From positions 3,515 to 67,514 of the forward strand of contig JALNWK010000006.1 of the NCBI GenBank assembly GCA_023230925.1: a DNA stretch of 64,000 nucleotides, in the 5' to 3' direction. Source of the DNA: Limnochordia bacterium (lineage in GTDB: Bacteria; Bacillota; Limnochordia; DUMW01). The first letter of the stretch is position 1; each line of letters opens with the position of its first letter. A program made the translations under genes and the position numbers. This document shows positions 7,846 through 59,932 of this stretch, piece after piece. The notes below the pieces were generated by a model. That model made no database searches. It worked only from the letters and a program-made list of their open reading frames with translations, and had not been told where the DNA came from.

Positions 7846-7848
7846 CAA

Positions 7849-8137
7849 AGTGAATCTAAAGGTATTTTTTCTTGCTTTTGGCACGCTTTTCCTAGCAGAG
7901 TTAGGGGACAAAACACAACTAGCGGTATTTACCCTTGCCGCCCAATACAAATCGCCCTGGCTCGTATTCGCCGGTGCTTCCCTAGGACTTTTGACGGTAA
8001 CTCTAATTAGCACATTCATTGGGCAGACGATTGTCAGATACATTCCTGCAGCGTATATTCAATTGGCGGCAGGTATCTTGTTTGTGGTTTTGGGAGTCGG
8101 TATCCTCTTGGGTGCCGCCCGGGACATGTTCGCATAA
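7849..8137 (+). CDS. UPF0016/GDT1-family membrane protein (single repeat)
   Basis: ELGDKTQL signature motif of the TMEM165/GDT1 family. GTG start at 7849 with a purine-rich RBS. Only one repeat unit, about 96 aa. Confidence 0.55.
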
Positions 8138-8149
8138 GGGGGACTTACA

Positions 8150-9019: not shown

Positions 9020-9049
9020 TATACTTGGGTGAACGTTGGAGGGAGTAGG

Positions 9050-46389: not shown

Positions 46390-46426
46390 CTAGCGTTGGT
46401 ATACCTGTGTGATGGGGAGGCACACG

Positions 46427-47308: not shown

Positions 47309-47318
47309 GGTAGAAACC

Positions 47319-47978
47319 TTGGTGAAAATAGCGCCTTCAATCTTGGCGGCTGATTTCGCCCATTTGGCGGAGGATGTTGCCAAGATTAGCAATGCAGATA
47401 TGCTCCATGTGGATATTATGGACGGTTCCTTTGTTCCTAATTTGACGATTGGCCCACCGGTGGTATCTGCCTTACGAAAGACTACGGACTTGGCCTTTGA
47501 CTGTCATCTGATGGTCAGTAACTGTGATGTATTGTTAGAGCCCCTCGCTGCAGCGGGAGCTGACTATGTTACTGTCCATGCCGAGGCCTGTGTCCATTTG
47601 CACCGTACGTTGATGTATATTAAGAAACTAGGGATGGGTTGTGGTGTTGCTCTTAACCCCTCAACACCGTTAACGAGTATCGAGTGGGTGTTGGATTTAC
47701 TTGATCTGGTCCTGATTATGACTGTCAACCCCGGTTTTGGCGGACAGAGCTTTATAACCCGTTCAGTGGAGAAGATTGCACGGCTCCAGGAGGAAATAAA
47801 GGTTCGAGGTCTGAAAACCCTGATTGCGGTGGATGGGGGAATCAACTTAGAGACGGCACCGGTAGTACATAGGGCCGGAGCAGACGTTCTGATCGCTGGT
47901 TCTTACGTTTTTTCTAGCCCTGATCCAGCGCTGGCGGTAGAACAATTACGGGCGGTGACGGATAAAGTGGGTAAATAG
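47319..47978 (+). CDS. rpe: ribulose-phosphate 3-epimerase
   Basis: VKIAPSILAADFA N-terminus, HVDIMDG and VNPGFGGQ motifs. TTG at 47319 after a GAGGT RBS. The track ORF is over-extended to 47217. Confidence 0.85.
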   Translation: MVKIAPSILAADFAHLAEDVAKISNADMLHVDIMDGSFVPNLTIGPPVVSALRKTTDLAFDCHLMVSNCDVLLEPLAAAGADYVTVHAEACVHLHRTLMYIKKLGMGCGVALNPSTPLTSIEWVLDLLDLVLIMTVNPGFGGQSFITRSVEKIARLQEEIKVRGLKTLIAVDGGINLETAPVVHRAGADVLIAGSYVFSSPDPALAVEQLRAVTDKVGK

Positions 47979-48095: not shown

Positions 48096-48124
48096 TTGCA
48101 TACAGGGTGTAGAGGGGGTATAAT
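48096..48124 (+). promoter_or_regulatory. strong sigma-A promoter upstream of the Tad/Flp locus
   Basis: TTGCAT (48096-48101), exactly 17 nt, then TATAAT (48119-48124). Sits about 65 nt upstream of the first Flp pilin start. Confidence 0.6.
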
Positions 48125-48188
48125 AGGGTCGGACGTTGGACAGACTCACCTAATATACGGGCAGCCGTCCCAAGGGAGGGGAGGTGAT

Positions 48189-48341
48189 ATGGGGTCTTTT
48201 GGTGACAAGGGTCAGGCGGCAGCCGAATTTGCACTGCTGGCTGCCGCGTTGGCTACGGCATTGCTGCTAGTTAATCAACAGTTTACCCAAGCTCTCAATT
48301 TGTACTTTCAGAAGTTGTTTTATTTGCTTCAGCTTTCTTAG
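48189..48341 (+). CDS. Flp/Fap-family pilin (variant 1)
   Basis: 50 aa. GGGAGGGGAGGTG RBS then ATG. Leader MGSFGDKG, then QAAAEFALLAAALATALLLV, a Flp-like G/xxxxEF(Y) processing motif plus a hydrophobic helix. The track ORF starts inside the promoter and is rejected as over-extended. Confidence 0.55.
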   Translation: MGSFGDKGQAAAEFALLAAALATALLLVNQQFTQALNLYFQKLFYLLQLS

Positions 48342-48422
48342 CCTTGCGTATTTGAGCTGCGGGGTGAAAGGGGTGATGAATCGGTAGATAACCCAGCAGT
48401 ATCAAGGAGGAGGTGTTCATGC

Positions 48423-48596
48423 TTGCAGAAAAACGTAAGGCGGTTGTTCCAAGACGAAACAGGGCAAAGCATGGCCGAATATGGTCTGCTTACCGCTCTG
48501 ATTGCCGTTGTCACCATTGCAGCGGTAAAGGCAATTGGTACAAGCATTAGTACCAAGTTCAATACACTAGCACAAGAAATTTCAGGTACACCATAA
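48423..48596 (+). CDS. flp: Flp-family pilin (canonical)
   Basis: TTG start 8 nt after an AAGGAGGAGGTG RBS. 57 aa, MQKNVRRLFQDETG / QSMAEYGLLTALIAVVTIAAV. Classic Flp prepilin G/xxxAEYGLL motif. Confidence 0.7.
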   Translation: MQKNVRRLFQDETGQSMAEYGLLTALIAVVTIAAVKAIGTSISTKFNTLAQEISGTP

Positions 48597-48710
48597 TATC
48601 TAACTCCCAGTTGGAGTGGGAGGCTTTCCGGCATAAACATGGATTGATTGCGTAGATTTGCAGGGAGAAGGCCAGGGGAATCCCTGGCCCATCCTTTTTG
48701 GAGGGGTTTT

Positions 48711-49193
48711 ATGGTCCCGAAGATCATTAACACTAGCTTGATATTGGGGCTGCTCTATAGCAGTTATACGGACTATCGGACGAACCGAATTTATAATATC
48801 GTTACCATACCCTTAATTGGGTTCGGTTTTGCAGCAAACAGCATTTACTATGGGTTCACTGGTTTGGTTTCTTCTTTGCTAGGATGTTTACTGTCTTCAG
48901 CACCCCTCTTCATTGCTTTTCTGCTAGGTGGTCTCGGTGGCGGTGATGTGAAACTAATGGCGGCCGTTGGTGCGTTAAAGGGCATAGACTTCGGTATTCT
49001 GGCCTTGTTTTTCACCGTGACCGTAGGGGCATTGTGGGCGTTAGTTCTTTTAGCCAAACATGGGGAATTGGGTTCCTTGATCCAGCGGCTTGTAACAGGA
49101 AGGTTAACAGACTGCTCGTCCAAGCTCACCCTTCCCTATGGAATAGCTATTACCTGTGGCTCTTTGCTGGCCCTGGGAGTATCTTGGCTATGA
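48711..49193 (+). CDS. prepilin peptidase CpaA/TadV (A24 family)
   Basis: Multi-TM protein with D...YRTNRIYN and the second catalytic Asp motif GGGDVKLMAAVGALKG. Start at the ATG at 48711, with GGAGGGG upstream. Confidence 0.75.
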   Translation: MVPKIINTSLILGLLYSSYTDYRTNRIYNIVTIPLIGFGFAANSIYYGFTGLVSSLLGCLLSSAPLFIAFLLGGLGGGDVKLMAAVGALKGIDFGILALFFTVTVGALWALVLLAKHGELGSLIQRLVTGRLTDCSSKLTLPYGIAITCGSLLALGVSWL

Positions 49194-49220
49194 AAGAGGC
49201 CAGACAAAGGAGGGGAAAAC

Positions 49221-49604
49221 ATGATAGACCTTAGTTGTGACCGGGGTCAAGTTCTACTGGAGGCGGCGATTGTGTTACCCTTGCTATTGCTAGTCACGAC
49301 AGGGATTATTTACCTGGCCATTGTGTTTAACGACGGGTTAGTTCATCGTTATATTACTTTTGATGCCGTTCGTGAGGCTGCTGTTGCGGGGGGTGTTGAG
49401 TTTTATGCACAGAACTTATACACAGCCCATAGTTTGCTTATGTTTCGGGGCGGTGCCCAACTGGACTTTGCGGTGGAGAACAACCAGGTAGCTGGCCAAG
49501 GGACTCTCTACCGATACTTGCAGTTTCCTGTTTTCCTACGCAAGGTTCCCGCTGCTTTGTTCCGTACCAAGTATCGGTTAACATGTAGTCCCAGAACTAA
49601 CTAA
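49221..49604 (+). CDS. TadE-like pseudopilin
   Basis: N-terminal RGQVLLEAAIVLPLLLLV, the TadE/TadG G-Q...E signature with a hydrophobic helix. Confidence 0.65.
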   Translation: MIDLSCDRGQVLLEAAIVLPLLLLVTTGIIYLAIVFNDGLVHRYITFDAVREAAVAGGVEFYAQNLYTAHSLLMFRGGAQLDFAVENNQVAGQGTLYRYLQFPVFLRKVPAALFRTKYRLTCSPRTN

Positions 49605-49780
49605 GGGGTCATCTACTAACGGGCTATTTCCCATCCTGAGAGCAAGTACCCTGGGCACACAAAGCGAAGGTGCAGGTTCTTTGCCCGGTAGATTAACATC
49701 ATGGATTCCTCTTTTGACGATGGGTATGACCTCTATTCCATCTAAAATATAGTCAGCATTTATGCTATCGCGCTAAGGAG

Positions 49781-50536
49781 GTGATGGGCCTATTGTTTGA
49801 TTCCGCCGGAAGGTGGAATCGTGGCCCAGTTTGTATGAGTAAATTACATCGAAGGGAGAAGCAGGCACTAACCCAAAACCGAAAGTCATCTGTGTTCCCC
49901 CAGTGTCAAAGCGGTCAAGCGGGCATTATGGTTGCTTTGATTCTAGCTGTGGCTGTGCTGTGTGCTGCAGCTGTTTCCCACACCGGGGAGCTGACCTTGG
50001 CCAAAATGCAAGCACAGATTGCAGCGGATGCAGGCGCACAAACCGCGGCGGCAGTTCTAGCCGATGGATTGAATACCGTGGCAATTACCAATGTCATTTT
50101 GGTGGGAGGAACCCTTTTGGTGCCGATCACCGAGGGATTAAGCGGTGCATTAGCACGGGGTGCCCATGTGGCCCAGCAAGTTGCGGTCAACACAACACCC
50201 GCGCTTAGTATTACCCTTGGAGAAACTGCTGCCTTTAATAGCGGAGCCGATTTTGCCGTCCCAACGGTGCTACCGGAGATGCATCTACAACGGGCGGCAT
50301 TGGGATACGAGGATCTGCTATCATACCAGGATAAAAACGTTCGACATGTCGGCTTTGCAGCCATGAAGGAACCGAAAAGTATTGCCAGTGGTTTTGCGGG
50401 TAACTTGGTGGATAAATGGAAGAAGGCATCAATGATTTCCTACGCCAAAGGCGTAGTGATTTGGGATGGCTTCGGTTTGGAGATGATCCGGTCCTTTATA
50501 CCCGCTTACGAAGCAGGCTTGACGACTAATCTTTAG
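49781..50536 (+). CDS. TadG-like / pilus assembly protein
   Basis: SGQAGIMVALILAVAVL N-terminal helix, then an Ala/Thr-rich extracellular domain. AAGGAGG RBS before the ATG at 49784. Confidence 0.5.
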   Translation: MMGLLFDSAGRWNRGPVCMSKLHRREKQALTQNRKSSVFPQCQSGQAGIMVALILAVAVLCAAAVSHTGELTLAKMQAQIAADAGAQTAAAVLADGLNTVAITNVILVGGTLLVPITEGLSGALARGAHVAQQVAVNTTPALSITLGETAAFNSGADFAVPTVLPEMHLQRAALGYEDLLSYQDKNVRHVGFAAMKEPKSIASGFAGNLVDKWKKASMISYAKGVVIWDGFGLEMIRSFIPAYEAGLTTNL

Positions 50537-50552
50537 AAAGTGAGGACTCTGG

Positions 50553-50939
50553 ATGGATAGTGAAAGGGGACAAGCTTTGCTAGAAATGGCTGTGCTCCTA
50601 CCCCTGCTGTTGGGTCTTTTCTTTGCCATCGCCCAAGTTGGGCTATTGTACAACACTAAGCAACTAATGTATATGGCGGCCCACCATGGCGCGTTGGTAG
50701 CAGCCTCAGGTGGTGATGGAGTATTTGAGGCCAGGGACTTGCTGCTAGAAAACGGCATTCATGAAAACCGGATTAGTCGGGTTGAAGAGCAACGGAATGG
50801 GAACCTAGTTACCTTGACTATCCAGTGTTCAGTTCCTCCGCTATTTGGACTTGAACCCTTCGGACAAAGAGAACACATCCTTACCGCACAGGTAACCATG
50901 GGCCAACAACTCATCCCCCGTATTCCGGGGGATGGTTGA
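50553..50939 (+). CDS. TadE/TadF-like pseudopilin
   Basis: ERGQALLEMAVLLPLLLGLFF N-terminal signature. Confidence 0.65.
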   Translation: MDSERGQALLEMAVLLPLLLGLFFAIAQVGLLYNTKQLMYMAAHHGALVAASGGDGVFEARDLLLENGIHENRISRVEEQRNGNLVTLTIQCSVPPLFGLEPFGQREHILTAQVTMGQQLIPRIPGDG

Positions 50940-50994
50940 TGGGACAATCCAGGAAGTCTTCTACCTGTAAATTATGTTTTAGGAGAGTGAGAAC

Positions 50995-51609
50995 TTGCAG
51001 TATTTACGGGTCTTCGCAGTGGTCGGTATGGTCTTGGGCCTCCCATCGACTGTCTGTGCCCAATCATACATATATGCCGATGCCGAGACTACAATCTCCT
51101 GGCTGACCAAAACCATTGAGTCGCCCCAGGAGCTCAGTGATATCCTACATTGGCTTTTTCATCGGTTTAGCTCGGATGATGTGTTGCTATCTCTGTGCCC
51201 CGTTAATGCTTCCTTGGAACTTCAGATATTGGCAAAGACCTCAGCATCATCGGTCTCATTGGAAGTCCCCCTGCCGGCGGATAGTAGGTTGCTTGCCATT
51301 TTACGTTCTGTGGGGCAGGGATACCTAGTTGAGACCATGGCCTTCTATACCCCTTGGTCACCTAGCAAAGTGGCTGAGTTTTACCAGATGGGACTGGTCG
51401 AATCCGGATGGAGTCCGGTGTACAACCTGCGTCACACTGATGGAATGATCCCTAGGAGAGTCTTATCCTTTGTGAAGGGATCAGAGGGGAGGTACATCAT
51501 GATTGATGAGGGTATTGATCCTTTAACTTTCGTACAGCTAGTTTGCTACCGAGTAGTGACCAGTCAGTATGATGCGGTATTCAAAGGAGGGATGAGTCAT
51601 GCACAATAA
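50995..51609 (+). CDS. secreted protein of unknown function within the Tad locus
   Basis: Signal peptide (VFAVVGMVLGLPSTVCAQS). No recognisable family. TTG start with a GGAGAGTGAG RBS. Confidence 0.4.
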   Translation: MQYLRVFAVVGMVLGLPSTVCAQSYIYADAETTISWLTKTIESPQELSDILHWLFHRFSSDDVLLSLCPVNASLELQILAKTSASSVSLEVPLPADSRLLAILRSVGQGYLVETMAFYTPWSPSKVAEFYQMGLVESGWSPVYNLRHTDGMIPRRVLSFVKGSEGRYIMIDEGIDPLTFVQLVCYRVVTSQYDAVFKGGMSHAQ

Positions 51610-52456
51610 GCGTCGTTTCCTGATTGCCTTGGCACTGGCGATCTTGGCGGCATTGTTTGCCGTTCGACACTTGCAGGCAGTTGAAACGCGGAAAATACTA
51701 GGCAACCAATCCGGTCGAGCGATCGTGACCGTAAAACCAGTATCCAAGGGGACTAAGATCACGCCGGATGTGATAGCCTATCTACCCATAGCCGAGGAGT
51801 TGATTCCTGCAAACGCGTTCATTGATGTAGAGACAATCCTGGGACGAACAACAGCAAGGGATCTACCCAAAGGAAGCCTGTTGCTAGAAGAACACTTGAT
51901 TACGGGGCGAACCCTAGCACAACGCTTAGCTGGTTCCTTGTATGGTTTTACTCTATCTGTGGATGAGCGAAATGCCATCGCTGGTTTGCTACGTCCAGGA
52001 GACTATGTGGATGTAATCAGTGTCCTTGCTGGGCGCGCCCTTACTGGAGCAGCAAGTGTCACCGTATTACGCCAGGTTCCGGTCATGGCTGTTAACGGTG
52101 TCCTAGGAGGGGATAGTCTGACATCGGGAACCGGACGAACAACGGTCACCCTTGGCCTTTCTTTGCACGAGGCCCAGACGTTGGCCTTATTCGAAGAGTA
52201 TAGCACATTGAGGTTGATCCTGTGTTCCGAACTAGGGGATGGCGGCACAGGTTCAGTAGAACCAACTGAATTGGAGCAGGTTCTATCCCAACAGGGTATC
52301 AACCTCAGGGATGAATTTTCTACCGACACAACGGACTGGAACAGTCTATTACAGGGAATTAGTTGGCCTGGTACTTCCACCATAGTTGATGGTTCACTAG
52401 GTACCGGTGGAGAGGTCATCCGGGGAACTACTGTGGAAAGACGAGATCTTAACTAG
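51599..52456 (+). CDS. cpaB: Flp pilus assembly protein CpaB/RcpC (SAF domain)
   Basis: N-terminal TM, then a SAF/RcpC domain (RAIVTVKPVSKGTKITPDVI...LPKGSLLL..). AAAGGAGG RBS. Confidence 0.75.
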   Translation: MHNKRRFLIALALAILAALFAVRHLQAVETRKILGNQSGRAIVTVKPVSKGTKITPDVIAYLPIAEELIPANAFIDVETILGRTTARDLPKGSLLLEEHLITGRTLAQRLAGSLYGFTLSVDERNAIAGLLRPGDYVDVISVLAGRALTGAASVTVLRQVPVMAVNGVLGGDSLTSGTGRTTVTLGLSLHEAQTLALFEEYSTLRLILCSELGDGGTGSVEPTELEQVLSQQGINLRDEFSTDTTDWNSLLQGISWPGTSTIVDGSLGTGGEVIRGTTVERRDLN

Positions 52457-52479
52457 AAATGACTGGAAGGAGTAGATAG

Positions 52480-53643
52480 ATGCGCAAACTAATACAGGCA
52501 ATCATCGTTGGTTTACTGGTGGTGGGTTTGGTCAGTCTTTGCAGTGGTGAAGTCATTAGTGTCGCAGAGCATTGCTCCCTTGTGATACCAGGTAGTAGGT
52601 TAGAACGGGTAGCTGTGGGAAATCCCCGGGTGGCTGATGTGCAGCTGATCAGTTCCACCGAGTTTTTGGTTAATGGCAAGAGCCCCGGGAGAACTAACAT
52701 CTTAGTGTGGGACGAGGATGAAGTAAGAGAGTATACCGTGTATGTGACCACAAATGATGAGCAACTCCCGGAGGAATGGTTTGAGGAAGTCGGTCAACAA
52801 CTCCATCGATGGGGAATCGATCTAAGAAAAGTCGGCCCGGTGGCGATACTGGAGGGGGAGACGGCAACCGCAGCACAGCTAGCCGCTGCCGAGCATATTA
52901 CAAGCCGACTTTTTGATGATGTGGCCAGTCTAGTAAGGTTGTCTACAGATGAGACTCCTGTATTTGACGACTACAGCCAGATCCAGTTAATCACTTATAT
53001 TGTTGAGCTAAGCGAAGGGTCCCTGCGAACCCTGGGTATCGATTGGCAAAGGACCATTGCCTCTGATGAGTTTGGTTTGCTTAATCTAGCTAGTGTTGCT
53101 CAATTAAGTGCATTGATCAACAAGATCGAAATGATGGAGCAGACCGGCAAGGCTTCAATACTTGCCAATCCTGTTCTGCTGGTAACCAGCGGGAAACCAG
53201 CGCGTTTTCTGGCCGGGGGGCAAGTGCCTATCCCCGTCGAAAGCGGCGAGAACCTACAGATTCAATGGAAGGAATACGGGGTTTCGGTCCAGGTTACAGC
53301 CAGGATAGAGGAGGATACGATTGTGATCAAGATTGAGCCGGAGGTGAGCTCCCTTGATTGGGCCAATGCGGTAAACACCAAGGGTGGTACCATACCTGCC
53401 TTGCGTACCCGGAGCTTGTATACCGAAGTGCGAATGCTTCCCCATGAAACCCTAGTGTTAGGCGGTCTTTTCATTCAGGAAGAAGCTAAAAGTCACGATA
53501 AGGTACCTTTGCTAGGAAGCTTGCCGTTGCTTGGTGGACTGTTTAGGACATCCTCCATTGAAAAAAGAAACACGGAACTAGTAATCCTGCTCTCAGCATT
53601 TCCAAAAACGAAAGGTCTAGGGAGAGTGAGCAGTCTTGACTAG
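52480..53643 (+). CDS. cpaC: secretin (CpaC/RcpA, type II/III secretion system secretin family)
   Basis: Signal peptide. The C-terminal secretin domain ends in the hallmark VPLLGSLPLLGGLFRTSSIEKRNTELVILLSAFP. N-terminal BON/secretin-N like region. Confidence 0.8.
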   Translation: MRKLIQAIIVGLLVVGLVSLCSGEVISVAEHCSLVIPGSRLERVAVGNPRVADVQLISSTEFLVNGKSPGRTNILVWDEDEVREYTVYVTTNDEQLPEEWFEEVGQQLHRWGIDLRKVGPVAILEGETATAAQLAAAEHITSRLFDDVASLVRLSTDETPVFDDYSQIQLITYIVELSEGSLRTLGIDWQRTIASDEFGLLNLASVAQLSALINKIEMMEQTGKASILANPVLLVTSGKPARFLAGGQVPIPVESGENLQIQWKEYGVSVQVTARIEEDTIVIKIEPEVSSLDWANAVNTKGGTIPALRTRSLYTEVRMLPHETLVLGGLFIQEEAKSHDKVPLLGSLPLLGGLFRTSSIEKRNTELVILLSAFPKTKGLGRVSSLD

Positions 53644-55648
53644 AGATAAACCACTGATTTTCGCTGTGACGGGGGCCAAAGGCGGGGTAGGTTGCACTCA
53701 TCTTGCCACCCAGTTGGCACAATCCTTTGCTTTGGCTGGCAAGAGCACTGTGATCTGTGATCTAAACTGGCGGACGGGAGGGGATGTTCATCTATTTCTT
53801 GGTACCCCGATAGAAACCTCTGTCTACGACTGGCTGCAGACCAAACAGACCGGGAGACGCTCTAGCATCAGTGCCTACTTACAGCTTCATGAAAGTGGGT
53901 TGCAGGTTCTGGCAACACCATCCTTCGGCATGAAAATCGGGTACGGACAGGATGTATGTGAGCTTGCTTCCGCTTTGACTCCCTTAGCTGAAGTGGTCGT
54001 ATTTGATTGTGGTACGGCGCTAGATGAAGTCACGATGTCTGCGATGGATGCTGCGGATGTCGTCTTGTTAGCAACTACCGGTGATGTTGTTGCTTTGGAG
54101 AATCTGCTAAACCGGATTGAACGCTTACGGGAGTTGCAGTACGTGCAGGATCGGTTTCGTCTGGTTTTGAATGAACGATCCCGCCTCGAGATTTCTTTCT
54201 CTGAGATGAAGGCGCTTCTGGGTGGTGAGTTCTATGGGATTATACCTGAGGGACTTTCGGAAGCCTTCATGGCAATCAGGGAAATCGCGGAGCGTCTATG
54301 GAGTGAACACGTCGATGGGGTCCTTTTTCCCCAGATAGAAAAGAAGGAGTCCTTCTTTTCTAGATTGGTTCCGAAATTGAGGATACGGTCGCCCAAAAAG
54401 CAGGAAGAGCCACCGATTGAGGAATCCGTAGATGCGATTGGTCTCAGGAAGATCAAAATCGAGGTACATCAACAACTCATGGACCGAATCGATATCAGGA
54501 AGATTGACCTTGCTCCCGATACAGGAGAAAACTTGCGTAAACAGGTGGAGCAGCACGTTACAGATATCTTATCCGGATACCGCCAGCTAAAAAACAACCG
54601 GCCCCTCCGGTTAACCTTGGTCAAAGAGATCGTCAATGAGGTATTGGGGCTAGGTCATCTTGAAGAGTTCTTACAGGATCCTGAGGTAACAGAGATTATG
54701 GTCAATGGAGCTGAACAGGTTTACGTGGAAAGAAGGGGAAGGATCGAGTTGACTGATCGTACCTTCATTAATGATGCCCAAGTCCTACAGATCCTAGAGC
54801 GGATCCTCGCACCTTTAGGTCGCCGGATTGATGAAAGCTCCCCCATGGTAGATGCCCGGCTGCCCGATGGTTCTCGGGTCAATGCGGTTATTCCGCCCTT
54901 AGCTGTCGATTGTCCAACATTGACGATCCGTAAGTTTGAGGTAGTACCTTTTACGATGAAGGACCTAGTGCTGAAAGGAACCATTGATAGACAAACAGCT
55001 GACATCGTCAGTGAGGCCGTCAGAGCCAAGAGGAACATTATCATCTCAGGGGGCACAGGTTCAGGGAAGACTACGTTGCTCAATGTGCTTTCGGACTTCA
55101 TTGGTAGGGATGAGCGGATTATTACCATCGAGGATGCTGCGGAGTTGCGACTAAAACAGGCCCATGTGATTCGTCTAGAGGCTAGACCCGCTAACATTGA
55201 AGGAAAAGGCGAGGTCGCCATTAGGGATTTGGTACGTAATGCGCTGCGCATGCGACCTGATCGGATTATTGTTGGAGAGGTCCGGGGTGGTGAAGCTTTG
55301 GATATGCTCCAAGCTATGAATACAGGACACAAGGGCTCATTAAGCACCATCCATGCAAACTCGCCAAGGGATGCCATTTCCAGGCTAGAGACCATGGTCC
55401 TTATGGCCGATGTGGACCTTCCCCTTGGGGCCATTCGCAATCAGATCGCCTCAGCGATTGACCTAATCATCCATATGAGCCGCCAAAGTGATGGTTCCCG
55501 GCGGGTAATTAGTATGGCACAGATTAAGGGAATAAGGGAGGGAGAGATCGTCCTAGGTGATCTACTCAGAACCCCGGCAAAGGCTTCTGAGGAGTACGAA
55601 GGCCCTCATTCTCAAGCTGTCTCTGCGGTGGGAGATATCGGAGGCTAG
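53636..55648 (+). CDS. fused CpaE/TadZ-like ParA/MinD ATPase and CpaF/TadA secretion ATPase
   Basis: Residues 1-250 form a deviant Walker A MinD/ParA domain (VTGAKGGVGCTHLA). Residues about 270-670 form a T2SSE/VirB11-like ATPase (Walker A GGTGSGKTT, Asp box, Walker B, His box). A single 670-aa ORF with a Lys/Pro-rich linker. Confidence 0.75.
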   Translation: MTRDKPLIFAVTGAKGGVGCTHLATQLAQSFALAGKSTVICDLNWRTGGDVHLFLGTPIETSVYDWLQTKQTGRRSSISAYLQLHESGLQVLATPSFGMKIGYGQDVCELASALTPLAEVVVFDCGTALDEVTMSAMDAADVVLLATTGDVVALENLLNRIERLRELQYVQDRFRLVLNERSRLEISFSEMKALLGGEFYGIIPEGLSEAFMAIREIAERLWSEHVDGVLFPQIEKKESFFSRLVPKLRIRSPKKQEEPPIEESVDAIGLRKIKIEVHQQLMDRIDIRKIDLAPDTGENLRKQVEQHVTDILSGYRQLKNNRPLRLTLVKEIVNEVLGLGHLEEFLQDPEVTEIMVNGAEQVYVERRGRIELTDRTFINDAQVLQILERILAPLGRRIDESSPMVDARLPDGSRVNAVIPPLAVDCPTLTIRKFEVVPFTMKDLVLKGTIDRQTADIVSEAVRAKRNIIISGGTGSGKTTLLNVLSDFIGRDERIITIEDAAELRLKQAHVIRLEARPANIEGKGEVAIRDLVRNALRMRPDRIIVGEVRGGEALDMLQAMNTGHKGSLSTIHANSPRDAISRLETMVLMADVDLPLGAIRNQIASAIDLIIHMSRQSDGSRRVISMAQIKGIREGEIVLGDLLRTPAKASEEYEGPHSQAVSAVGDIGG

Positions 55649-55704
55649 TCTGAGATTAGTCAAATTCAATGTTTCTTCCTAAACGAGAAAAGGAGGTGGT
55701 GATC

Positions 55705-56487
55705 ATGATTGTCATTGTGGCTGGTCTTGTGTTCGGCGCGGTTTTTCTGGCGACTTCCAGTGGTTGGCCCTATCTTGAACGTATCTGGCGGTGGATACAA
55801 CCCTTAGGTAAAAACCCCCTTTTCCTTGGATTAGGGGTGTTTCTGGTGGTGTATGCACTACGGGGCAGTATTAGTCTAGGTCTGTTGCTTTCATTGAGTA
55901 TTGTTAGCGCAGTAAAGGTAAAATCGATGTACTTGCGAAGACGCCGTTTTCATGCATTGGATAGTCAGTTAGCCGATGGTCTTCTGTTATTGTCAAACGG
56001 CCTCAAAGCAGGTTTTAGTCTACGCCAAGCCCTGGAGATGGTGGGGCGGGAAATGGCAGATCCCTTGGGAGCTGAGATACGGGTGCTGGTCCATGAACTG
56101 GACCTAGGAATTTCGTTGCCCGAGGCCATGCGCCGTTTTTCTATTTCAGCGGAGCATCCAGATGTAGAGCTGGCTGTTACCGCTATTCTTGTACAGCGGG
56201 TGACTGGGGGCAATTTGGCCGTAGCCTTAGAGCGGATCGCCGGTACGATAAATGAACGTAGGCGGTTAGTCGGTAAGGTGCGGGCTATGACAAGCCAAGG
56301 CCGCCTTACAGGGGTGATTATTTCCTTGATGCCTGTAGTCTTGATGCTATTGCTTTTGCTCATCGCTCCGGACTTTGTGGCACCGCTGCTCTTTACTACC
56401 CAAGGGCGCTTACTGCTCACTCTAGGGGCCATGATGCAAGCCATCGGAGCGTTGTTGGTATGGCGGATTTGCTCTGTGGAATTGTAG
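55705..56487 (+). CDS. tadB: Flp pilus assembly membrane protein TadB (T2SS-F family)
   Basis: T2SSF domain membrane protein. ATG at 55705 after an AAAGGAGGTGGTG RBS. Confidence 0.75.
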   Translation: MIVIVAGLVFGAVFLATSSGWPYLERIWRWIQPLGKNPLFLGLGVFLVVYALRGSISLGLLLSLSIVSAVKVKSMYLRRRRFHALDSQLADGLLLLSNGLKAGFSLRQALEMVGREMADPLGAEIRVLVHELDLGISLPEAMRRFSISAEHPDVELAVTAILVQRVTGGNLAVALERIAGTINERRRLVGKVRAMTSQGRLTGVIISLMPVVLMLLLLLIAPDFVAPLLFTTQGRLLLTLGAMMQAIGALLVWRICSVEL

Positions 56488-56576
56488 TGGAACGTCAATG
56501 GAATAGAAAGGGTTCTATTTAGTGAGCGAGTATTCCTATAGAAAGGCGGTGTGGCGACCTTTGGTCGCTTAATTCT

Positions 56577-57434
56577 ATGCAGGTTATCCTGGTTGGTATT
56601 TTAGTCGGTTCTGCTGTATTCTTTGCGGTTGCGGGAATACTACCCTCGGAGCAAAGAACCAGAAGACTTCTCAATTGCAAGCAGCAAGAGACTGTCTATG
56701 GTCATCTGAAGACACCATGGCGTGTTCTACTGGAGATCGTCTGCGGGATGGGGCGGCTCTGTCGGCATATACTTCCTAAAAGCTACCTAGGCAAATGTCA
56801 GGATTTATTAATAATGGCAGGAGAACCCTTGGGGATTGATGTATACTGCGGACTTGGTGTTGTTGTACTATGCTTAGCCATGGGTTTTGGCCTGGCAGCA
56901 TCAAATTGGATGGTTACCTTCTTTGCTATTATTCTAGGGTTAGTCTCCATGCGGATATGGCTTGTGGCCATGGTTCGGCGCAGAAGAAACTGCATATCCC
57001 GGACACTACCCTTTGCTTTGGATCTCTTAACCATCTGTGGAGAGGCGGGACTCGGTTTTGATAGTGCATTGTCCCGCTATGTGGAAAGCAGCGACGAGGG
57101 ACCACTTAGGGAAGAGTTTGTGGGACTCCTCCAAGATATGCGGTCGGGAAAGTCACGGTATCAGGCGTTGAAGGATTTTGCCGAGCGACTAAAAAGTCCT
57201 GAGATAGACTCCTTTTGCCTGACGATGATGCAGGCTGATCAACTAGGGACTAGTATTGGCACTGTGTTGCGGATGCTGGCAGATCAAACTAGAACACGCA
57301 GGAGTCAGCAAATAGAAGGTCTAGCCATGCGGGCGCCTGTTAAGATGCTATTTCCCCTATTATTCTTCGTCTTTCCTGCGGTTTTCATCGTCTTCTTTGG
57401 TCCTATTTTGCTAAATGGTCTTTTCCTTACCTGA
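56577..57434 (+). CDS. tadC: Flp pilus assembly membrane protein TadC (T2SS-F family)
   Basis: Second T2SSF-domain membrane protein, immediately after tadB. Confidence 0.7.
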   Translation: MQVILVGILVGSAVFFAVAGILPSEQRTRRLLNCKQQETVYGHLKTPWRVLLEIVCGMGRLCRHILPKSYLGKCQDLLIMAGEPLGIDVYCGLGVVVLCLAMGFGLAASNWMVTFFAIILGLVSMRIWLVAMVRRRRNCISRTLPFALDLLTICGEAGLGFDSALSRYVESSDEGPLREEFVGLLQDMRSGKSRYQALKDFAERLKSPEIDSFCLTMMQADQLGTSIGTVLRMLADQTRTRRSQQIEGLAMRAPVKMLFPLLFFVFPAVFIVFFGPILLNGLFLT

Positions 57435-57675
57435 TATTCAGAAGGTATTTGTCGATCGACGTGGAAGTAATTACTTAAAATGGATTGGAGATGGATGGAG
57501 TCCACTGTCCTTATGGGCAAGGGGACGATCTCGGTCAGGTGTGTTTCCGGAATCTGTACCATGCCGGATAACTAGGCGGGCCGTTCTACTGGTTCATAGT
57601 CAATCTAGCATTGGGTGATTCGTGCTAGGTGAGTTGTGGCGGCTGCCTAATCGAACGTTTAGTGAAGGTGTTAGG

Positions 57676-58320
57676 ATGGACTATGCTGATTATTCCGTGG
57701 TTTTGACCAACGGGACGGTTTCCGATTTGACGTTTTACCGACCGTTCTTGGAGGAGGCAAATTTTATCATTGCCGCAGATGGGGGAGCTACTATCGCAAC
57801 AAGGTTAGGCGTGCGCCCATCGGTGCTTATTGGTGACTTTGATTCCCTTCCTGAAGAGGACCAAGACGTTCTTTCAGCTCAGGAGGTAAAGGTGATTAGG
57901 TATCCGGTCCATAAAGATAAGACAGATAGTCACTTGGCTGTTGAGTATGCTCTGAAACTATCACCAAGGAACATTATTATACTGGGGCCCTTGAGGGGCC
58001 GGCTTGATCATACTCTAGCTAATGTGGGCCTATTGTTTTTGATTCGCTCGGCTGGGAAAAAGGGTTATCTTGTGGATGAGACTAACTTCTGTCAGCTGAG
58101 TGGAAGTGAATGTTGGATTACAGGAAATATTGGACAGTTGGTATCTCTAATTCCTTTGTCCGAGGAGGTCAAAGGAGTATCTACTATTGGGTTGGGTTAT
58201 CCTTTAACGGGTTCTACGTTAAGGCGATGTGATTCCCTGGGGGTAAGTAACTTTCTTGTCGAGGCACAGGCACGGGTTGCGGTAACTAGTGGTGACTTGC
58301 TCATTGTCCAGGTTCGATAA
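57676..58320 (+). CDS. thiN: thiamine pyrophosphokinase
   Basis: VVLTNGTVSDLTFY...FIIAADGGA...LIGDFDSL TPK catalytic motifs. Same position as B. subtilis thiN (yloS) after rpe. Confidence 0.85.
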   Translation: MDYADYSVVLTNGTVSDLTFYRPFLEEANFIIAADGGATIATRLGVRPSVLIGDFDSLPEEDQDVLSAQEVKVIRYPVHKDKTDSHLAVEYALKLSPRNIIILGPLRGRLDHTLANVGLLFLIRSAGKKGYLVDETNFCQLSGSECWITGNIGQLVSLIPLSEEVKGVSTIGLGYPLTGSTLRRCDSLGVSNFLVEAQARVAVTSGDLLIVQVR

Positions 58321-58387
58321 GTCGCGAATGTCAACCGCGAGACAGTCTATTTTAACCTGTGGCATCAATATGGAAGGGGGAAGGAAA

Positions 58388-58546
58388 ATGCCAAAGAAGT
58401 GTAAAGATTGCGGCGCCGAGAGCCCAAACTGGGAGACTACATGCAAAAGCTGTGGAGCGGATTTTCCACCGTTGCTGAAGCAGGTTGAACCGGAGAAGAA
58501 GAAAAAAGGTCTGTTTGGTAAGCTATTCGGCAAAAAGGACGAATGA
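58388..58546 (+). CDS. small zinc-ribbon protein with Lys-rich amphipathic tail
   Basis: 52 aa, CKDCGAESPNWETTCKSCGA, a 2xCxxC zinc ribbon, then KKKKGLFGKLFGKKDE. GGAAGGGGGAAGG RBS. Confidence 0.5.
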   Translation: MPKKCKDCGAESPNWETTCKSCGADFPPLLKQVEPEKKKKGLFGKLFGKKDE

Positions 58547-58666
58547 GATCGGCTCGTATTTATTAGTTTCTATGGACTTAGCGTTTCATCACACGATGGT
58601 GTTCTACTGTGGGGTGAGACGCTATTATTTTTCGTGAGAACACCTTATGTACTGGGAGGTCCAGCA

Positions 58667-59932
58667 ATGCTGGTTAGAGATCCTATTCACGGGGACATTT
58701 ACTTAACGGAGGAAGAGACCCGGGTACTGGATACTGCCCCCATGCAAAGACTGCGGGGTATCAAGCAGTTAGGCATGGCGTACTTGGTCTATCCCGGTTG
58801 CATGCACACTCGTTTCGAACACTGCTTGGGCACTTTGGCCATGGCCCAGAGAATTCTAGAAGCCCTGATGCGTAATGGATATCGCATTTCCCAGGAAGAA
58901 CAGTGTCTAGTGCGTATGTCCGCCTTGGTCCATGATATCTCCCATATTCCCTTTGGGCATACCTTCGAGGACGAACGGGCGATTTTCCCCCGCCATGACT
59001 CCAAGGAACGGGTGATGTCGTTCCTTGAACGAGGAGACTTGCAGACTCTATTAGGTAAGTACGGTCTTCTGCAGCATGTCCTTTCGATTATCTTAAGACA
59101 GCCCAATAGTCCCTTTGCTCCCTGGGTGGGTGAGATCGTATCTAGTACTTTGGATGCGGATCTTCTGGATTACTTAAGGCGGGATGCGTATTACTCCGGT
59201 TTGTCTCAAACCTATGATGACCGCATCATCGATCATTTTGTGATTTGCGATGGGAAACTTGCGATAAACATGCAAAAACATGGGATGGATCGCCCCGATA
59301 TTCGCTCCGAAATCCTTCATCTGCTTCGCATGAGGTACGTCCTTACGGAACGGGTCTACTATCATCATACAAAAGTCGTAGCTGGCGCCATGCTCTCTAA
59401 GGCTTTGGAGTTAGCAAAAGTCGATGTAAGGGATCTGTACTCCCTGGGGGATTGGCAGCTTCTTGACTACCTTCTGCAGGTGAGTCGGTATAAAGGGATC
59501 CCAGGCGTGAAGCGGCTTGTTAAACGACTAACAAGCCGGGATTTACTAAAGCGGGCCTACGTGATATCGCTGGCTACGGTATCGCCACGCAAGCAAGCGC
59601 ATCTAATCTCCCTCTATTCTCATCCCCGAGGAATTAGGCTAAAGACCGAGCGAGAGATTGCAAGAAGCCTGGCACTGGAGGAAGATGAGGTTATAATCTA
59701 CTGTCCACCTAAGACTGCTCTGCAGGAGACAGCAGTCTTAGTTAACTCAGCGGCCGGTCTACGACCTTTGAACACACCTGGATTCTGTGAGGAAGCCAAC
59801 ATAGCGCTGCTGGAGAGTCAGTATGAAGCGCTATGGCGTCTGTATGTCTTTGCCCCGAAAGAAAAACGGGCCGACGTCCGGAGGATATGTCAATCCCTCT
59901 TCAATCTCCCTAGTGAGTATCAATTCAGCTAG
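58667..59932 (+). CDS. HD-domain phosphohydrolase (dNTPase-like)
   Basis: HTRFEHCLGT...HDISHIPFGHTFED HD motif. ATG at 58667 after a GGGAGG RBS. Confidence 0.7.
   Translation: MLVRDPIHGDIYLTEEETRVLDTAPMQRLRGIKQLGMAYLVYPGCMHTRFEHCLGTLAMAQRILEALMRNGYRISQEEQCLVRMSALVHDISHIPFGHTFEDERAIFPRHDSKERVMSFLERGDLQTLLGKYGLLQHVLSIILRQPNSPFAPWVGEIVSSTLDADLLDYLRRDAYYSGLSQTYDDRIIDHFVICDGKLAINMQKHGMDRPDIRSEILHLLRMRYVLTERVYYHHTKVVAGAMLSKALELAKVDVRDLYSLGDWQLLDYLLQVSRYKGIPGVKRLVKRLTSRDLLKRAYVISLATVSPRKQAHLISLYSHPRGIRLKTEREIARSLALEEDEVIIYCPPKTALQETAVLVNSAAGLRPLNTPGFCEEANIALLESQYEALWRLYVFAPKEKRADVRRICQSLFNLPSEYQFS

What the first reader, a model, noticed from the sequence alone, without database searches (positions are those of the whole stretch)
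53636..55648. Single-polypeptide fusion of the TadZ/CpaE-like MinD ATPase with the TadA/CpaF secretion ATPase
TadZ (the localisation ATPase) and TadA (the motor ATPase) are normally separate proteins. Here a MinD/ParA-type domain (VTGAKGGVGCT..., deviant Walker A) is joined by a Lys/Pro-rich linker (RIRSPKKQEEPPIEES) to a complete CpaF domain (GGTGSGKTT). This gives one 670-aa ORF, without the N-terminal receiver-like domain usual in TadZ.

The fusion implies obligate 1:1 stoichiometry and co-localisation of the positioning and motor functions.
Basis: seen in the sequence. Interest (0 to 1): 0.55.

Follow-up and report, generated by a model that had tools for sequence, protein, structure and literature searches.

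The report
TadZ–TadA fused pilus motor ATPase
This gene really does encode the Tad pilus positioning protein (TadZ/CpaE-like) joined to the pilus motor (TadA/CpaF) in one chain, but the same "TadZA" fusion is already described in Bdellovibrio and occurs in several bacterial phyla, so this is a new, divergent example rather than a new kind of protein.

Summary
Window 53636-55648 (+) is one 670-aa ORF. It has a MinD/ParA-fold domain (aa 6-233), a disordered 33-aa linker and a complete CpaF/TadA motor (aa 267-645). It sits in a full Tad pilus locus, between the secretin gene and tadB/tadC.

It is not an assembly artefact. Three other assemblies keep the ORF open: a 99.7%-identical strain with no indels, and two assemblies of one relative whose protein is 66-68% identical.

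The N-domain is TadZ/CpaE-derived:
- Its nearest relatives among 1.8 billion proteins are about 400-aa CpaE proteins.
- Its KGGVGCT motif matches the atypical Walker A seen in more than half of the standalone TadZ sampled.
- Loci with a fusion never have a separate tadZ, whereas 54 loci with an unfused tadA have tadZ immediately upstream.
- The receiver-like domain of TadZ is absent.

The architecture is not new. A 2026 preprint characterises the B. bacteriovorus "TadZA" fusion. Co-linear homologues occur in Bacillota, Omnitrophota, Bdellovibrionota, Elusimicrobiota, Desulfobacterota and Sericytochromatia, and some are already named "CpaE/CpaF".

Likely function: a self-positioning pilus motor whose N-domain binds ATP and dimerises but hydrolyses poorly.

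Verdict: new member of a known kind; modest interest.

The parts
53636..55648 (+). tadZA: a single 670-aa ORF encoding a TadZ-like domain fused to the TadA/CpaF motor (TTG start, stop included)
   Evidence: Identical length and start in JGI protein P0001. The frame is open in L081, L082 and L083.
53620..53626 (+). Shine-Dalgarno-like GGGAGAG, 9 nt upstream of the TTG start. The start overlaps the end of the secretin gene by 8 nt.
   Evidence: read directly from the sequence. An in-frame TGA at 53627-53629 rules out a longer N-terminus.
53651..54334 (+). TadZ/CpaE-type MinD/ParA-fold domain (aa 6-233), with no receiver-like domain in front of it
   Evidence: Pfam AAA_31/CbiA. AF2 pLDDT above 90. 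Foldseek top hits are FleN, 3EA0, MinD and FlhG; TadZ 3FKQ scores E 1.7e-9, TMq 0.67. Nearest relatives are about 400-aa CpaE proteins matched at their residues ~130-345.
53672..53698 (+). Atypical deviant Walker A, GAKGGVGCT (aa 13-21). The signature Lys15 is kept; the canonical P-loop Lys is replaced by Cys20.
   Evidence: At that position only 27 of 61 standalone TadZ have Lys, and 8 have Cys. The Walker B Asp (VVVFDCG, D124) is conserved in all 122 Z domains. Switch I reads DLN rather than DLD.
54335..54433 (+). Disordered inter-domain linker (aa 234-266). It occupies the position of the disordered NTD0 of Caulobacter CpaF.
   Evidence: AF2 pLDDT 42-51. Only 21% identity to P0006, against 51-88% in the domains. 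Both non-synonymous differences from strain L083 fall here. NTD0 data from PMC11300603.
54341..54388 (+). Basic/hydrophobic segment KKESFFSRLVPKLRIR (aa 236-251): a candidate remnant of the TadZ/CpaE C-terminal amphipathic membrane-binding helix (inferred)
   Evidence: Standalone TadZ tails end in similar motifs (RGLFARR, KGLFKLWARGK, GGFFASLFNRG). The Bacillota fused clade has RRLLPLI/RRFLPII at the same place. AF2 predicts only a 4-residue helix, aa 240-243. An enrichment test was not significant.
54434..54646 (+). CpaF NTD1-like three-helix module (aa 267-337)
   Evidence: AF2 helices at 267-284, 294-312 and 322-337. Window aa 299-644 align to Caulobacter CpaF 106-453. CpaF NTD1 is residues 80-149 (PMC11300603).
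54647..54985 (+). CpaF NTD2 (aa 338-450), including the invariant DARLPDGSRV arginine-containing segment
54986..55570 (+). CpaF catalytic C-terminal domain (aa 451-645). It carries Walker A GGTGSGKTT (aa 472-480; nt 55049-55075), the Asp box IEDAAE, the Walker B segment DRIIVGEVRG and the His box TGHKGSLSTIHAN.
   Evidence: Pfam T2SSE, 222.6 bits. 363 bits to the CpaF structures 9E24/8RKD. These residues are invariant in alignment A1.
55571..55645 (+). Non-conserved disordered tail (aa 646-670) that replaces the conserved C-terminal ~45 aa of other CpaF proteins
   Evidence: Alignment A1, columns ~745-825. AF2 pLDDT about 40. 16% identity to P0006.
48096..53643 (+). Upstream half of the same Tad locus: two Flp pilins (48096-48341, 48423-48596), prepilin peptidase TadV (48648-49193), TadE-like genes (49221-49604, 50553-50939), two unassigned ORFs (49781-50536, 50995-51609), CpaB/RcpC (51599-52456) and the CpaC/RcpA secretin (52480-53643)
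   Evidence: Pfam results; ORFs.
55669..57434 (+). Platform genes tadB (55669-56487) and tadC (56577-57434)
   Evidence: Pfam T2SSF.

Best explanation
The gene encodes a TadZA-type hybrid: the ATPase-like domain of the Tad positioning protein TadZ/CpaE, fused through a flexible linker to the bifunctional Tad pilus motor TadA/CpaF. It is the only TadZ-like and the only TadA-like gene in a complete diderm-type Tad (Flp) pilus locus of an uncultured Bacillota-like bacterium.

Shown:
- Domain identities, the disordered linker and the absence of the receiver-like domain.
- Intact catalytic motifs in the motor.
- An atypical Walker A in the N-domain: signature Lys kept, P-loop Lys changed to Cys, switch-I Asp changed to Asn.
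- Conservation of the fusion in related strains and in a broader Bacillota clade.
- Mutual exclusivity between a fusion and a separate tadZ.

Inferred mechanism:
- The C-terminal module forms the hexameric motor that drives Flp pilin polymerisation and retraction through TadB/TadC.
- The N-terminal module binds ATP and forms MinD-like sandwich dimers but hydrolyses poorly, as reported for TadZ. It acts as a built-in scaffold and positioning module.
- With help from the basic/hydrophobic segment in the linker, the N-module holds the motor at the membrane and the assembly site.
- The covalent link replaces the non-covalent CpaE-CpaF contact and the receiver-domain contacts of canonical systems. 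It fixes six TadZ domains per hexamer.

Origin: read-through of the adjacent tadZ-tadA gene pair, together with loss of the receiver domain.
For: - Domains.
- TadZ ancestry of the N-domain. An exhaustive phmmer search gave 4,089 hits at E up to 1e-3 and 448 at E up to 1e-10. The best 150 are almost all 370-430 aa proteins matched at their residues ~130-345, and those that carry a name are called CpaE. The best word-index hits are CpaE at 37% identity.
- Walker A. The Lys-less motif is typical of TadZ: 34 of 61 standalone TadZ lack that Lys. Denise et al. 2019 (PMC6668835) summarise TadZ as having an atypical Walker A, ATP binding and low ATPase activity.
- Context. In the 80 GTDB loci, L081 and the window, 54 tadA genes have a separate tadZ immediately upstream, and 11 loci are fused with no separate Z within 8 kb. 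There is no other Z-like or F-like ORF in the 64-kb window.
- Co-linear homology. 38% identity over residues 39-645 to the fused gene of Bdellovibrio sp. HCB288. 45% over residues 8-640 to P0036, a fused Bacillota MAG protein.
- Published TadZA. In B. bacteriovorus it is essential, and its TadZ-plus-linker region binds the polarity hub RomR (bioRxiv 10.64898/2026.07.08.737194).
- Selection. The Z domain is 51% identical to P0006, against 21% for the linker. Of 8 SNPs versus strain L083, 6 are synonymous and the 2 non-synonymous ones lie in the linker.
- Position of the fusion. The Z domain and linker sit where Caulobacter CpaF has its disordered, dispensable NTD0 (PMC11300603).
- Partner contact. 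In situ, CpaE contacts CpaF and carries a C-terminal amphipathic helix (PMC13170226).
Against: - No biochemical or cell-biological data exist for this protein, so ATP binding, dimerisation and membrane binding of the N-module are inferences.
- The amphipathic-helix idea is weak. A motif-enrichment test was not significant: 14 of 61 standalone tails scored, against 7.3 (maximum 16) when shuffled; 11 of 61 fused linkers scored, against 9.5. The segment contains a Pro, and AF2 predicts only four helical residues at low confidence.
- Fold search cannot separate TadZ from MinD, FleN or ParA: 3FKQ is only rank 40. A sequence search of the PDB with the N-domain did not recover 3FKQ.
- With Cys in place of the P-loop Lys and Asn in switch I, the domain may not bind nucleotide at all.
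- Six Z domains per hexamer differ from the 12 CpaE per hexamer modelled in Caulobacter, so the canonical ring cannot be copied directly.
Confidence: 0.85

Rival explanations
1. Assembly or sequencing artefact: two adjacent genes (tadZ, tadA) merged by an indel or a missed stop.
For: In 54 sampled loci tadZ and tadA are adjacent and nearly abutting, so a single indel would merge them. NCBI annotated only a 378-aa CpaF (P0029) in the related MAG.
Against: The ORF is open in the window, in L083 (99.67% identity, 0 gaps), in L081 and in L082. The short NCBI gene call reflects the choice of a downstream ATG, not a stop. The fusion persists at 66-68% protein identity with the linker rewritten (21% identity) but still in frame.
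Confidence: 0.02
2. The N-terminal region is an ordinary N-domain of CpaF-family ATPases, or a generic ParA/MinD unrelated to TadZ, captured by chance.
For: CpaF proteins carry varied N-extensions: FHA domains, a duplicated N-domain, and tandem ATPase domains. Pfam and NCBIfam scores of the N-domain are modest (AAA_31 34 bits; MinD TIGR01968 29.5 bits against a cut-off of 212.9). Top fold hits are FleN and MinD rather than TadZ.
Against: Canonical CpaF has a disordered NTD0 there. The closest sequence relatives are CpaE/TadZ-architecture proteins. The atypical Walker A matches TadZ. Fused loci lack tadZ, whereas unfused loci have it directly upstream. Standalone TadZ proteins from tad loci match the profile built from fused N-domains at E 1e-40 to 1e-70.
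Confidence: 0.05
3. The N-domain is a degenerate pseudo-ATPase that no longer binds nucleotide. It serves only as a passive dimerisation or docking module, or is on the way to being lost.
For: The P-loop Lys is Cys and the second switch-I Asp is Asn, in both the window and P0006. The Z domain evolves faster than the motor: 51% identity against 81-88%.
Against: The signature Lys, the glycine-rich loop and the Walker B Asp are kept. The same Lys-less motif is common in functional-looking standalone TadZ, and TadZ is reported to bind ATP (PMC6668835, PMC13170226). The domain is far better conserved than the linker, and the SNPs in it are synonymous.
Confidence: 0.25
4. The fusion in this lineage arose independently of the Bdellovibrio/Omnitrophota-type TadZA: convergent fusion of neighbouring genes.
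For: In the Z-domain NJ tree the fused proteins fall into two separate all-fused clades, one of 15 (the window clade plus Bacillota P0033-P0044) and one of 43. The F-domain tree recovers the same Bacillota grouping. By score, the window's Z domain is closer to standalone CpaE (78-89 bits) than to Z domains of the other fused clade. The linker motif R[RL][LF]xP is shared only within the Bacillota group.
Against: Bootstrap support is low (10/50 and 19/50), deep nodes are unresolved, and NJ with simple distances is crude. A single ancient fusion followed by fissions is not excluded.
Confidence: 0.5

Closest known systems
TadZA fusion ATPase of Bdellovibrio bacteriovorus (bioRxiv 10.64898/2026.07.08.737194)
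   Same: [quoted passage not shown] It is encoded in the main tad locus with no separate tadZ. The homologue in Bdellovibrio sp. HCB288 aligns co-linearly at 38% identity over residues 39-645.
   Different: The window protein belongs to a different (Bacillota) group of fused proteins in both domain trees. It has Cys instead of Lys in the P-loop, whereas the fused Bdellovibrio sp. HCB288 homologue (L037) has KGGVGKS. It lacks the conserved C-terminal ~45 aa of CpaF. The partner RomR and the predatory role are specific to Bdellovibrio and cannot be assumed here.
Canonical TadZ/CpaE (A. actinomycetemcomitans TadZ, C. crescentus CpaE, E. rectale TadZ PDB 3FKQ)
   Same: A MinD/ParA-fold ATPase-like domain with a deviant, atypical Walker A. 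Encoded immediately before tadA in tad loci. The nearest sequence relatives of the window's N-domain are of this type. There is a structural match to 3FKQ (E 1.7e-9, TMq 0.67).
   Different: Canonical TadZ is a separate ~380-450 aa protein with an N-terminal atypical receiver domain of ~130-170 aa. Here that domain is absent and the ATPase-like domain is covalently joined to the motor. In Caulobacter, 12 CpaE (six dimers) are modelled around one CpaF hexamer (PMC13170226); here the ratio is fixed at 6:6.
CpaF/TadA motor ATPase (C. crescentus CpaF; PDB 9E24, 8RKD, 8RJF)
   Same: Residues 299-644 align to CpaF 106-453 with 363 bits. The NTD1 three-helix module, NTD2 and CTD are present, and Walker A, the Asp box, Walker B and the His box are all intact.
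   Different: The disordered NTD0 is replaced by a folded TadZ-like domain plus linker. The last ~45 conserved residues are replaced by a short disordered tail.
MinD / FlhG (FleN) positioning ATPases
   Same: Same fold; these are the top Foldseek hits (8P53, 5J1J, 4V02, 4RZ2). The signature Lys of the deviant Walker A is present. There may be a membrane-binding amphipathic segment after the domain.
   Different: Scores are far below the family cut-offs (MinD TIGR01968 29.5 bits against 212.9). The canonical P-loop Lys is missing. There is no minC/minE or flagellar context. The domain is fused to a secretion ATPase.

Membership tests
TadA/CpaF secretion ATPase (T2SSE superfamily) | T2SSE domain above Pfam's gathering score, with strong similarity to solved CpaF structures | tested here: met
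   PF00437: 222.6 bits against a cut-off of 24.9. 363 bits, E 2e-107, to 9E24/8RKD CpaF.
TadA/CpaF secretion ATPase (T2SSE superfamily) | Intact Walker A, Asp box, Walker B and His box | tested here: met
   GGTGSGKTT (aa 472-480), IEDAAE (aa 498-503), DRIIVGEVRG and TGHKGSLSTIHAN are present. These positions are invariant in A1.
TadA/CpaF secretion ATPase (T2SSE superfamily) | Encoded in a tad locus next to tadB/tadC, Flp pilins and the prepilin peptidase | tested here: met
TadA/CpaF secretion ATPase (T2SSE superfamily) | NCBIfam TIGR03819 (TadA family, conjugal-transfer-associated) equivalog cut-off | tested here: not met
   340.8 bits against a cut-off of 373.15. That model describes a specific actinobacterial-type subfamily, so this failure does not affect CpaF-family membership.
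TadZ/CpaE (tad-locus ParA/MinD-like protein) | MinD/ParA fold with the signature Lys of the deviant Walker A (xKGG) | tested here: met
   AAA_31/CbiA. AF2 model plus Foldseek. K15 sits in GAKGG.
TadZ/CpaE (tad-locus ParA/MinD-like protein) | Atypical Walker A: the canonical P-loop Lys is often replaced | tested here: met
   KGGVGCT. In 61 standalone TadZ this position is K in 27, T in 9, A in 8, C in 8, R in 6, and S or V in 3.
TadZ/CpaE (tad-locus ParA/MinD-like protein) | Closest homologues are TadZ/CpaE, and the gene lies directly upstream of tadA | tested here: met
   for homologues; for gene position. Here it is fused in frame to tadA.
TadZ/CpaE (tad-locus ParA/MinD-like protein) | N-terminal atypical receiver (ARD) domain | tested here: not met
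   The Z domain starts at aa 6, and an in-frame stop lies 9 nt upstream of the start. In standalone TadZ the domain starts at a median position of aa ~159 in the stop-to-stop ORF. The protein is therefore a TadZ-derived domain, not a full canonical TadZ.
TadZ/CpaE (tad-locus ParA/MinD-like protein) | C-terminal amphipathic membrane-binding helix | tested here: inconclusive
   A candidate, KKESFFSRLVPKLRIR, follows the domain. The enrichment test was not significant and the helix prediction is weak.
TadZ/CpaE (tad-locus ParA/MinD-like protein) | ATP binding and dimerisation with low ATPase activity; localisation-hub function | not testable with these tools
   Needs biochemistry and cell biology.
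TadZA fusion (Bdellovibrio-type) | A single polypeptide: receiver-less TadZ domain, flexible linker, then TadA | tested here: met
   The same layout appears in 50 of the 120 listed homologues, with a median length of 717 aa and the Z domain starting at aa ~2.
TadZA fusion (Bdellovibrio-type) | Co-linear homology to a Bdellovibrio fused gene, and no separate tadZ in the locus | tested here: met
   (38% identity over residues 39-645 with L037).
TadZA fusion (Bdellovibrio-type) | Common descent of the fusion event with the Bdellovibrio protein | tested here: inconclusive
   The NJ trees place the window protein in a separate, Bacillota-type fused clade, but with low support.
TadZA fusion (Bdellovibrio-type) | Interaction with a polarity hub (RomR) through TadZ plus linker | not testable with these tools
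   Experimental property reported only for B. bacteriovorus.
MinD (cell-division site selection) | Equivalog score, canonical KGGxGKT/S motif, minC/minE context | tested here: not met
   TIGR01968: 29.5 bits against a cut-off of 212.9. Cys at the P-loop Lys position. The context is a tad locus.

The most novel reading that the evidence does not exclude
The Bacillota-type TadZA (this protein, its sister sequences and the P0033-P0044 clade) may be a second, independent fusion of tadZ to tadA. On this reading it kept the TadZ membrane-targeting segment as an internal tether. With only six nucleotide-binding but hydrolysis-poor TadZ domains per motor hexamer, it would assemble a cytoplasmic ring different from the 12-CpaE ring seen in Caulobacter. 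The spread of such fusions over at least six phyla has not been described in any paper I could search; the one paper that describes the fusion treats it as a Bdellovibrio peculiarity.
Probability: 0.3. Interest if true: 0.45.

Novelty: new member of a known kind. Interest (0 to 1): 0.25.

Why it matters
[quoted passage not shown] How it contacts the motor is only now being modelled in situ.

Natural fusions give genetic evidence that TadZ's ATPase-like domain works in direct physical partnership with TadA, and that the receiver-like domain can be dispensed with once the two are tethered.

This example adds a divergent Bacillota representative with a Lys-less P-loop and a shortened motor C-terminus. 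It shows that the "atypical" Bdellovibrio TadZA architecture is recurrent across phyla.

There is also a practical point for annotation. One public MAG annotates only the C-terminal 378 aa, because the true start is not an ATG.

None of this opens a new class of system.

Tried and rejected
1. Over-counting of fusions. I first read the tblastn rows ("query residues 8-644 matched") as more than 40 fusions among 80 genomes. ORF-level HMM analysis showed that most are adjacent, separate tadZ and tadA genes joined by the tool. True fusions number 9 of 80, plus L081 and the window.
2. Frameshift or assembly artefact. Rejected on three further assemblies.
3. "Intrinsic CpaF N-domain". Rejected.
4. 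PDB sequence search with the N-domain. It found ParA, Soj, FleN and 3EA0 but not TadZ 3FKQ. 3FKQ appears only by fold, at rank 40, and weakly by sequence with a clostridial TadZ as query. Structure therefore cannot discriminate TadZ from MinD or FleN.
5. Amphipathic/MTS motif enrichment against shuffled tails. Not significant, so the idea is kept only as a hypothesis.
6. NJ bootstrap trees of both domains. The window's own clade is solid (50/50), but its link to the Bacillota fused clade (19/50 and 10/50) and all deep nodes are weak.
7. The idea that loss of the CpaF C-terminal motif correlates with fusion. Rejected: fused proteins of the Omnitrophota type keep the motif.
8. The primary TadZ papers (PMC3272108, PMC3305808) are not held, and the preprint's reference list is not held either. 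I therefore could not identify the earlier source it cites for the fusion prediction.
9. The word-index search with the N-domain alone returned only 6 hits and missed P0001 and P0006. The exhaustive search replaced it.
10. The organism could not be identified. No near-identical genome exists among the GTDB representatives, and the Rfam and tRNA scans gave only one tRNA-Pro.

Full report
**Observation**

Window 53636-55648 (+) is a single 670-aa ORF with a TTG start. A GGGAGAG Shine-Dalgarno sequence lies 9 nt upstream. An in-frame TGA immediately before that rules out a longer N-terminus.

Pfam places a MinD/ParA-type domain (AAA_31, CbiA) at aa 8-166 and a T2SSE secretion-ATPase domain at aa 339-619. 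NCBIfam agrees: TadA, VirB11 and TrbB families match the C-terminal half, and weak ParA, CpaE-homologue and MinD hits match the N-terminal half.

**Context**

The gene lies in a complete Tad (Flp) pilus locus at 48096-57434. In order, the locus contains:
- two Flp pilins
- the prepilin peptidase
- two TadE-like genes and two unassigned ORFs
- CpaB/RcpC
- a CpaC/RcpA secretin
- this gene
- tadB and tadC

The locus is inserted between rpe and the thiamin pyrophosphokinase gene of a prkC-rsgA-rpe block. That order is typical of Bacillota (my own knowledge of the B. subtilis gene order). The same arrangement is seen in the related MAG contig L082. No other MinD-like or CpaF-like ORF exists in the 64-kb window.

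**Not an artefact**

- L083, a JGI metagenome contig, is 99.67% identical over 7,965 bp, with 26 mismatches and no gaps. It encodes the same 670-aa protein apart from two substitutions.
- L081, a Logan contig, encodes P0006 (655 aa, 66-68% identical) in the same gene order.
- L082, an NCBI MAG, carries the same relative's gene with the frame open through the N-domain. The annotated 378-aa "CpaF family protein" (P0029) simply starts at a downstream ATG.

Against P0006, identity by region is: Z domain 51%, linker 21%, NTD1 68%, NTD2 88%, CTD 81%, tail 16%. Of the eight SNPs that separate the window from L083 within the gene, six are synonymous and the two non-synonymous ones lie in the linker. 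Both domains are therefore maintained by selection, while the linker drifts but stays in frame.

**Structure**

AlphaFold2 was run on the N-terminal 275 aa (mean pLDDT 86, core above 90) and on the full length (mean pLDDT 86, pTM 0.71). The models give:
- a MinD-like alpha/beta domain, aa 6-233
- a disordered segment, aa 234-261
- three helices at 267-337, matching the NTD1 of CpaF
- NTD2 and CTD up to aa 645
- a disordered tail, aa 650-670

Residues 299-644 align to Caulobacter CpaF residues 106-453 with 363 bits. In Caulobacter CpaF, residues 1-79 (NTD0) are disordered and dispensable, whereas NTD1 (80-149) is needed (PMC11300603). The TadZ-like domain and linker therefore sit where canonical CpaF has only a disordered extension.

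**What the N-domain is**

*Fold search.* The top hits are FleN, the ParA-family protein 3EA0, MinD, FlhG and Soj. The E. rectale TadZ structure 3FKQ is at rank 40 (E 1.7e-9, TMq 0.67). Fold alone cannot separate TadZ from its relatives, but sequence and context can.

*Nearest sequence relatives.* An exhaustive phmmer search of 1.84 billion representatives gave 4,089 hits at E up to 1e-3 and 448 at E up to 1e-10. After the self-cluster, the best 150 are almost all 370-430 aa proteins matched at their residues ~130-345. That is the receiver-plus-ATPase architecture of TadZ/CpaE. Two of the ten best hits I looked up are named "pilus assembly protein CpaE" by JGI, one partial sequence is called hypothetical, and the rest carry no name. 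The word-index search gave a Myxococcota CpaE (37% identity) as its best hit.

*Gene context.* I built profiles of the fused N-domain (Z) and of the CpaF part (F), then scanned all ORFs of 80 GTDB species loci, L081 and the window.

| Arrangement | tadA genes |
|---|---|
| Separate tadZ immediately upstream (Z domain starts at a median aa ~159 of the stop-to-stop ORF) | 54 |
| True fusion, no separate Z within ±8 kb | 11 |
| Another N-extension of at least 100 aa and no Z in the locus; FHA in related proteins | 17 |
| Z elsewhere in the locus | 1 |

This complementarity is the strongest evidence that the fused domain stands in for TadZ.

*Walker A.* The window has GAKGGVGCT. The signature Lys is kept and the canonical P-loop Lys is Cys. 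Among 61 standalone TadZ, that position is Lys in only 27 and Cys in 8. The motif is therefore the "atypical Walker A" of the TadZ family. Denise et al. 2019 (PMC6668835) and the 2026 Caulobacter tomography paper (PMC13170226) summarise that family as binding ATP for dimerisation with low ATPase activity. The Walker B Asp is conserved. The second switch-I Asp is Asn here.

**Is the fusion known?**

Yes. [quoted passage not shown] In that protein a Walker A-like N-region is joined to TadA by a flexible linker. It is essential, and its TadZ-plus-linker region binds the polarity hub RomR. The preprint cites an earlier source for the predicted fusion.

The window protein aligns co-linearly with the fused gene of Bdellovibrio sp. 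HCB288 (38% over residues 39-645). It also aligns with a fused Bacillota MAG protein (45% over residues 8-640).

Of the 120 best database homologues listed, 50 are fused (median length 717 aa, Z domain starting at aa ~2). Some are already named "pilus assembly protein CpaE/pilus assembly protein CpaF" by JGI.

By record titles, fused genes occur in Bacillota, Omnitrophota, Bdellovibrionota (including Oligoflexia), Elusimicrobiota, Desulfarculus and Sericytochromatia.

I first over-counted fusions from the tblastn table. The ORF-level analysis corrected this.

**Origin**

NJ trees with bootstrap give a solid clade for the window and its sisters (window, P0001, P0006/L081; 50/50 in both trees; P0029 joins it in the motor tree, which is the only tree it could enter). 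This clade groups with a Bacillota fused clade (P0033-P0044) in both the motor tree (19/50) and the Z tree (10/50). In the Z tree, the other 43 fused proteins form a separate all-fused clade.

The Bacillota group also shares a linker motif (R[RL][LF]xP) and a reduced motor C-terminus.

At least two fusion events are therefore plausible but not established. Because tadZ and tadA normally abut, loss of a stop codon would be enough to create the fusion.

**Mechanism (inferred)**

The C-terminal module has every catalytic motif and should form the hexameric bidirectional motor acting on TadB/TadC.

The N-terminal module most likely binds ATP through the retained signature Lys and glycine loop. It would form MinD-type dimers and act as a built-in scaffold and positioning element rather than a fast ATPase.

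The 33-residue disordered linker is long enough for Z domains of neighbouring protomers to pair.

The segment KKESFFSRLVPKLRIR directly after the domain resembles the basic/hydrophobic C-terminal tails of standalone TadZ. It also resembles the amphipathic helix proposed for CpaE (PMC13170226). My enrichment test was not significant, however, and the helix prediction is weak.

The fusion fixes six TadZ domains per hexamer. The Caulobacter model has six CpaE dimers around the hexamer, with receiver domains mediating contacts between dimers. The cytoplasmic ring must therefore be organised differently here, and the missing receiver domain fits that.

**Verdict**

This is a new, divergent Bacillota-type member of the TadZA kind. 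Its minor peculiarities are the Cys in the P-loop, the Asn in switch I, the loss of the conserved CpaF C-terminal ~45 residues, and its setting in a secretin-containing locus in a Bacillota-like genome. Interest is modest.

Noticed in passing
window 55571-55648 (aa 646-670); alignment A1 columns ~745-825: The window protein and its sisters (P0001, P0006, P0029) lack the conserved C-terminal ~45 residues of CpaF proteins (consensus ...GxVxGxFxxTGxxPxF...GIxLPxxxF). They end in a short disordered tail 20 nt before tadB. The Bacillota fused clade (P0033/36/44) has a partly shortened C-terminus.
   Followed up: partly
L082 (NCBI GCA_012839765.1, DUMW01000082.1) 6891-9137: The public annotation calls only the C-terminal 378 aa (P0029, 'CpaF family protein'), starting at an internal ATG. 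The frame is open through the whole MinD-like domain, so the fusion is hidden by a mis-called start.
   Followed up: yes
P0002-P0005 (metagenomic proteins, ~1150 aa): P0002 (the one scanned) contains three tandem T2SSE/CpaF ATPase domains in one polypeptide (three Pfam stretches); P0003-P0005 have similar length and score. Two such chains could make a pseudo-hexamer.
   Followed up: partly
L030 6267-10112 (Eremiobacterota MAG CAWCIZ010000003.1): A stop-to-stop ORF of 1,282 aa carries CbiA/MinD-like (aa 316-503), T2SSE (aa 648-923) and T2SSF (aa 1114-1239) domains. This may be a TadZ-TadA-TadB triple fusion. Start codon and assembly were not checked.
   Followed up: no
P0057 (863 aa, ENA metagenome): A TadZ-TadA fusion that keeps a ~140-aa N-terminal region before the MinD-like domain (aa 141-371) and T2SSE (aa 495-774). 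In other words, a fusion of a full-length TadZ. All the other fused proteins lack this region.
   Followed up: partly
P0030-P0034, P0042, P0045 (~640-660 aa): These CpaF homologues have an N-extension that is not MinD-like. It looks like a second, degenerate copy of the CpaF N-terminal domain (two T2SSE stretches in P0030).
   Followed up: partly
L025, L027, L043, L050, L052, L054, L055, L057, L061, L064, L071, L072 and others (17 tadA genes in 16 loci): CpaF genes with a different N-terminal extension of at least 100 aa have no TadZ-like ORF within ±8 kb. Related 550-590 aa proteins such as P0061 carry an FHA domain there, which suggests that FHA-CpaF systems dispense with TadZ.
   Followed up: partly
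window 44374-47978 and 57622-59932: The Tad locus is inserted inside a conserved prkC (PASTA kinase)-rsgA-rpe ... thiamin pyrophosphokinase block typical of Bacillota, yet it encodes an outer-membrane secretin. This suggests a diderm Bacillota lineage. No near-identical genome was found among 185,579 GTDB species representatives.
   Followed up: partly
window 49781-50536 and 50995-51609: Two ORFs inside the Tad locus (251 and 204 aa) have no Pfam match. Their counterparts in L081 and L082 are also unassigned. They may be lineage-specific minor pilins or alignment proteins.
   Followed up: no
PDB 3EA0 (Chlorobium tepidum 'ParA family ATPase', 245 aa): This is the best PDB sequence match for standalone TadZ/CpaE proteins and rank 2 by fold for the window's N-domain. 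It has an atypical Lys-less Walker A (KGGDGGS), so it may be an unrecognised receiver-less TadZ-type structure.
   Followed up: partly
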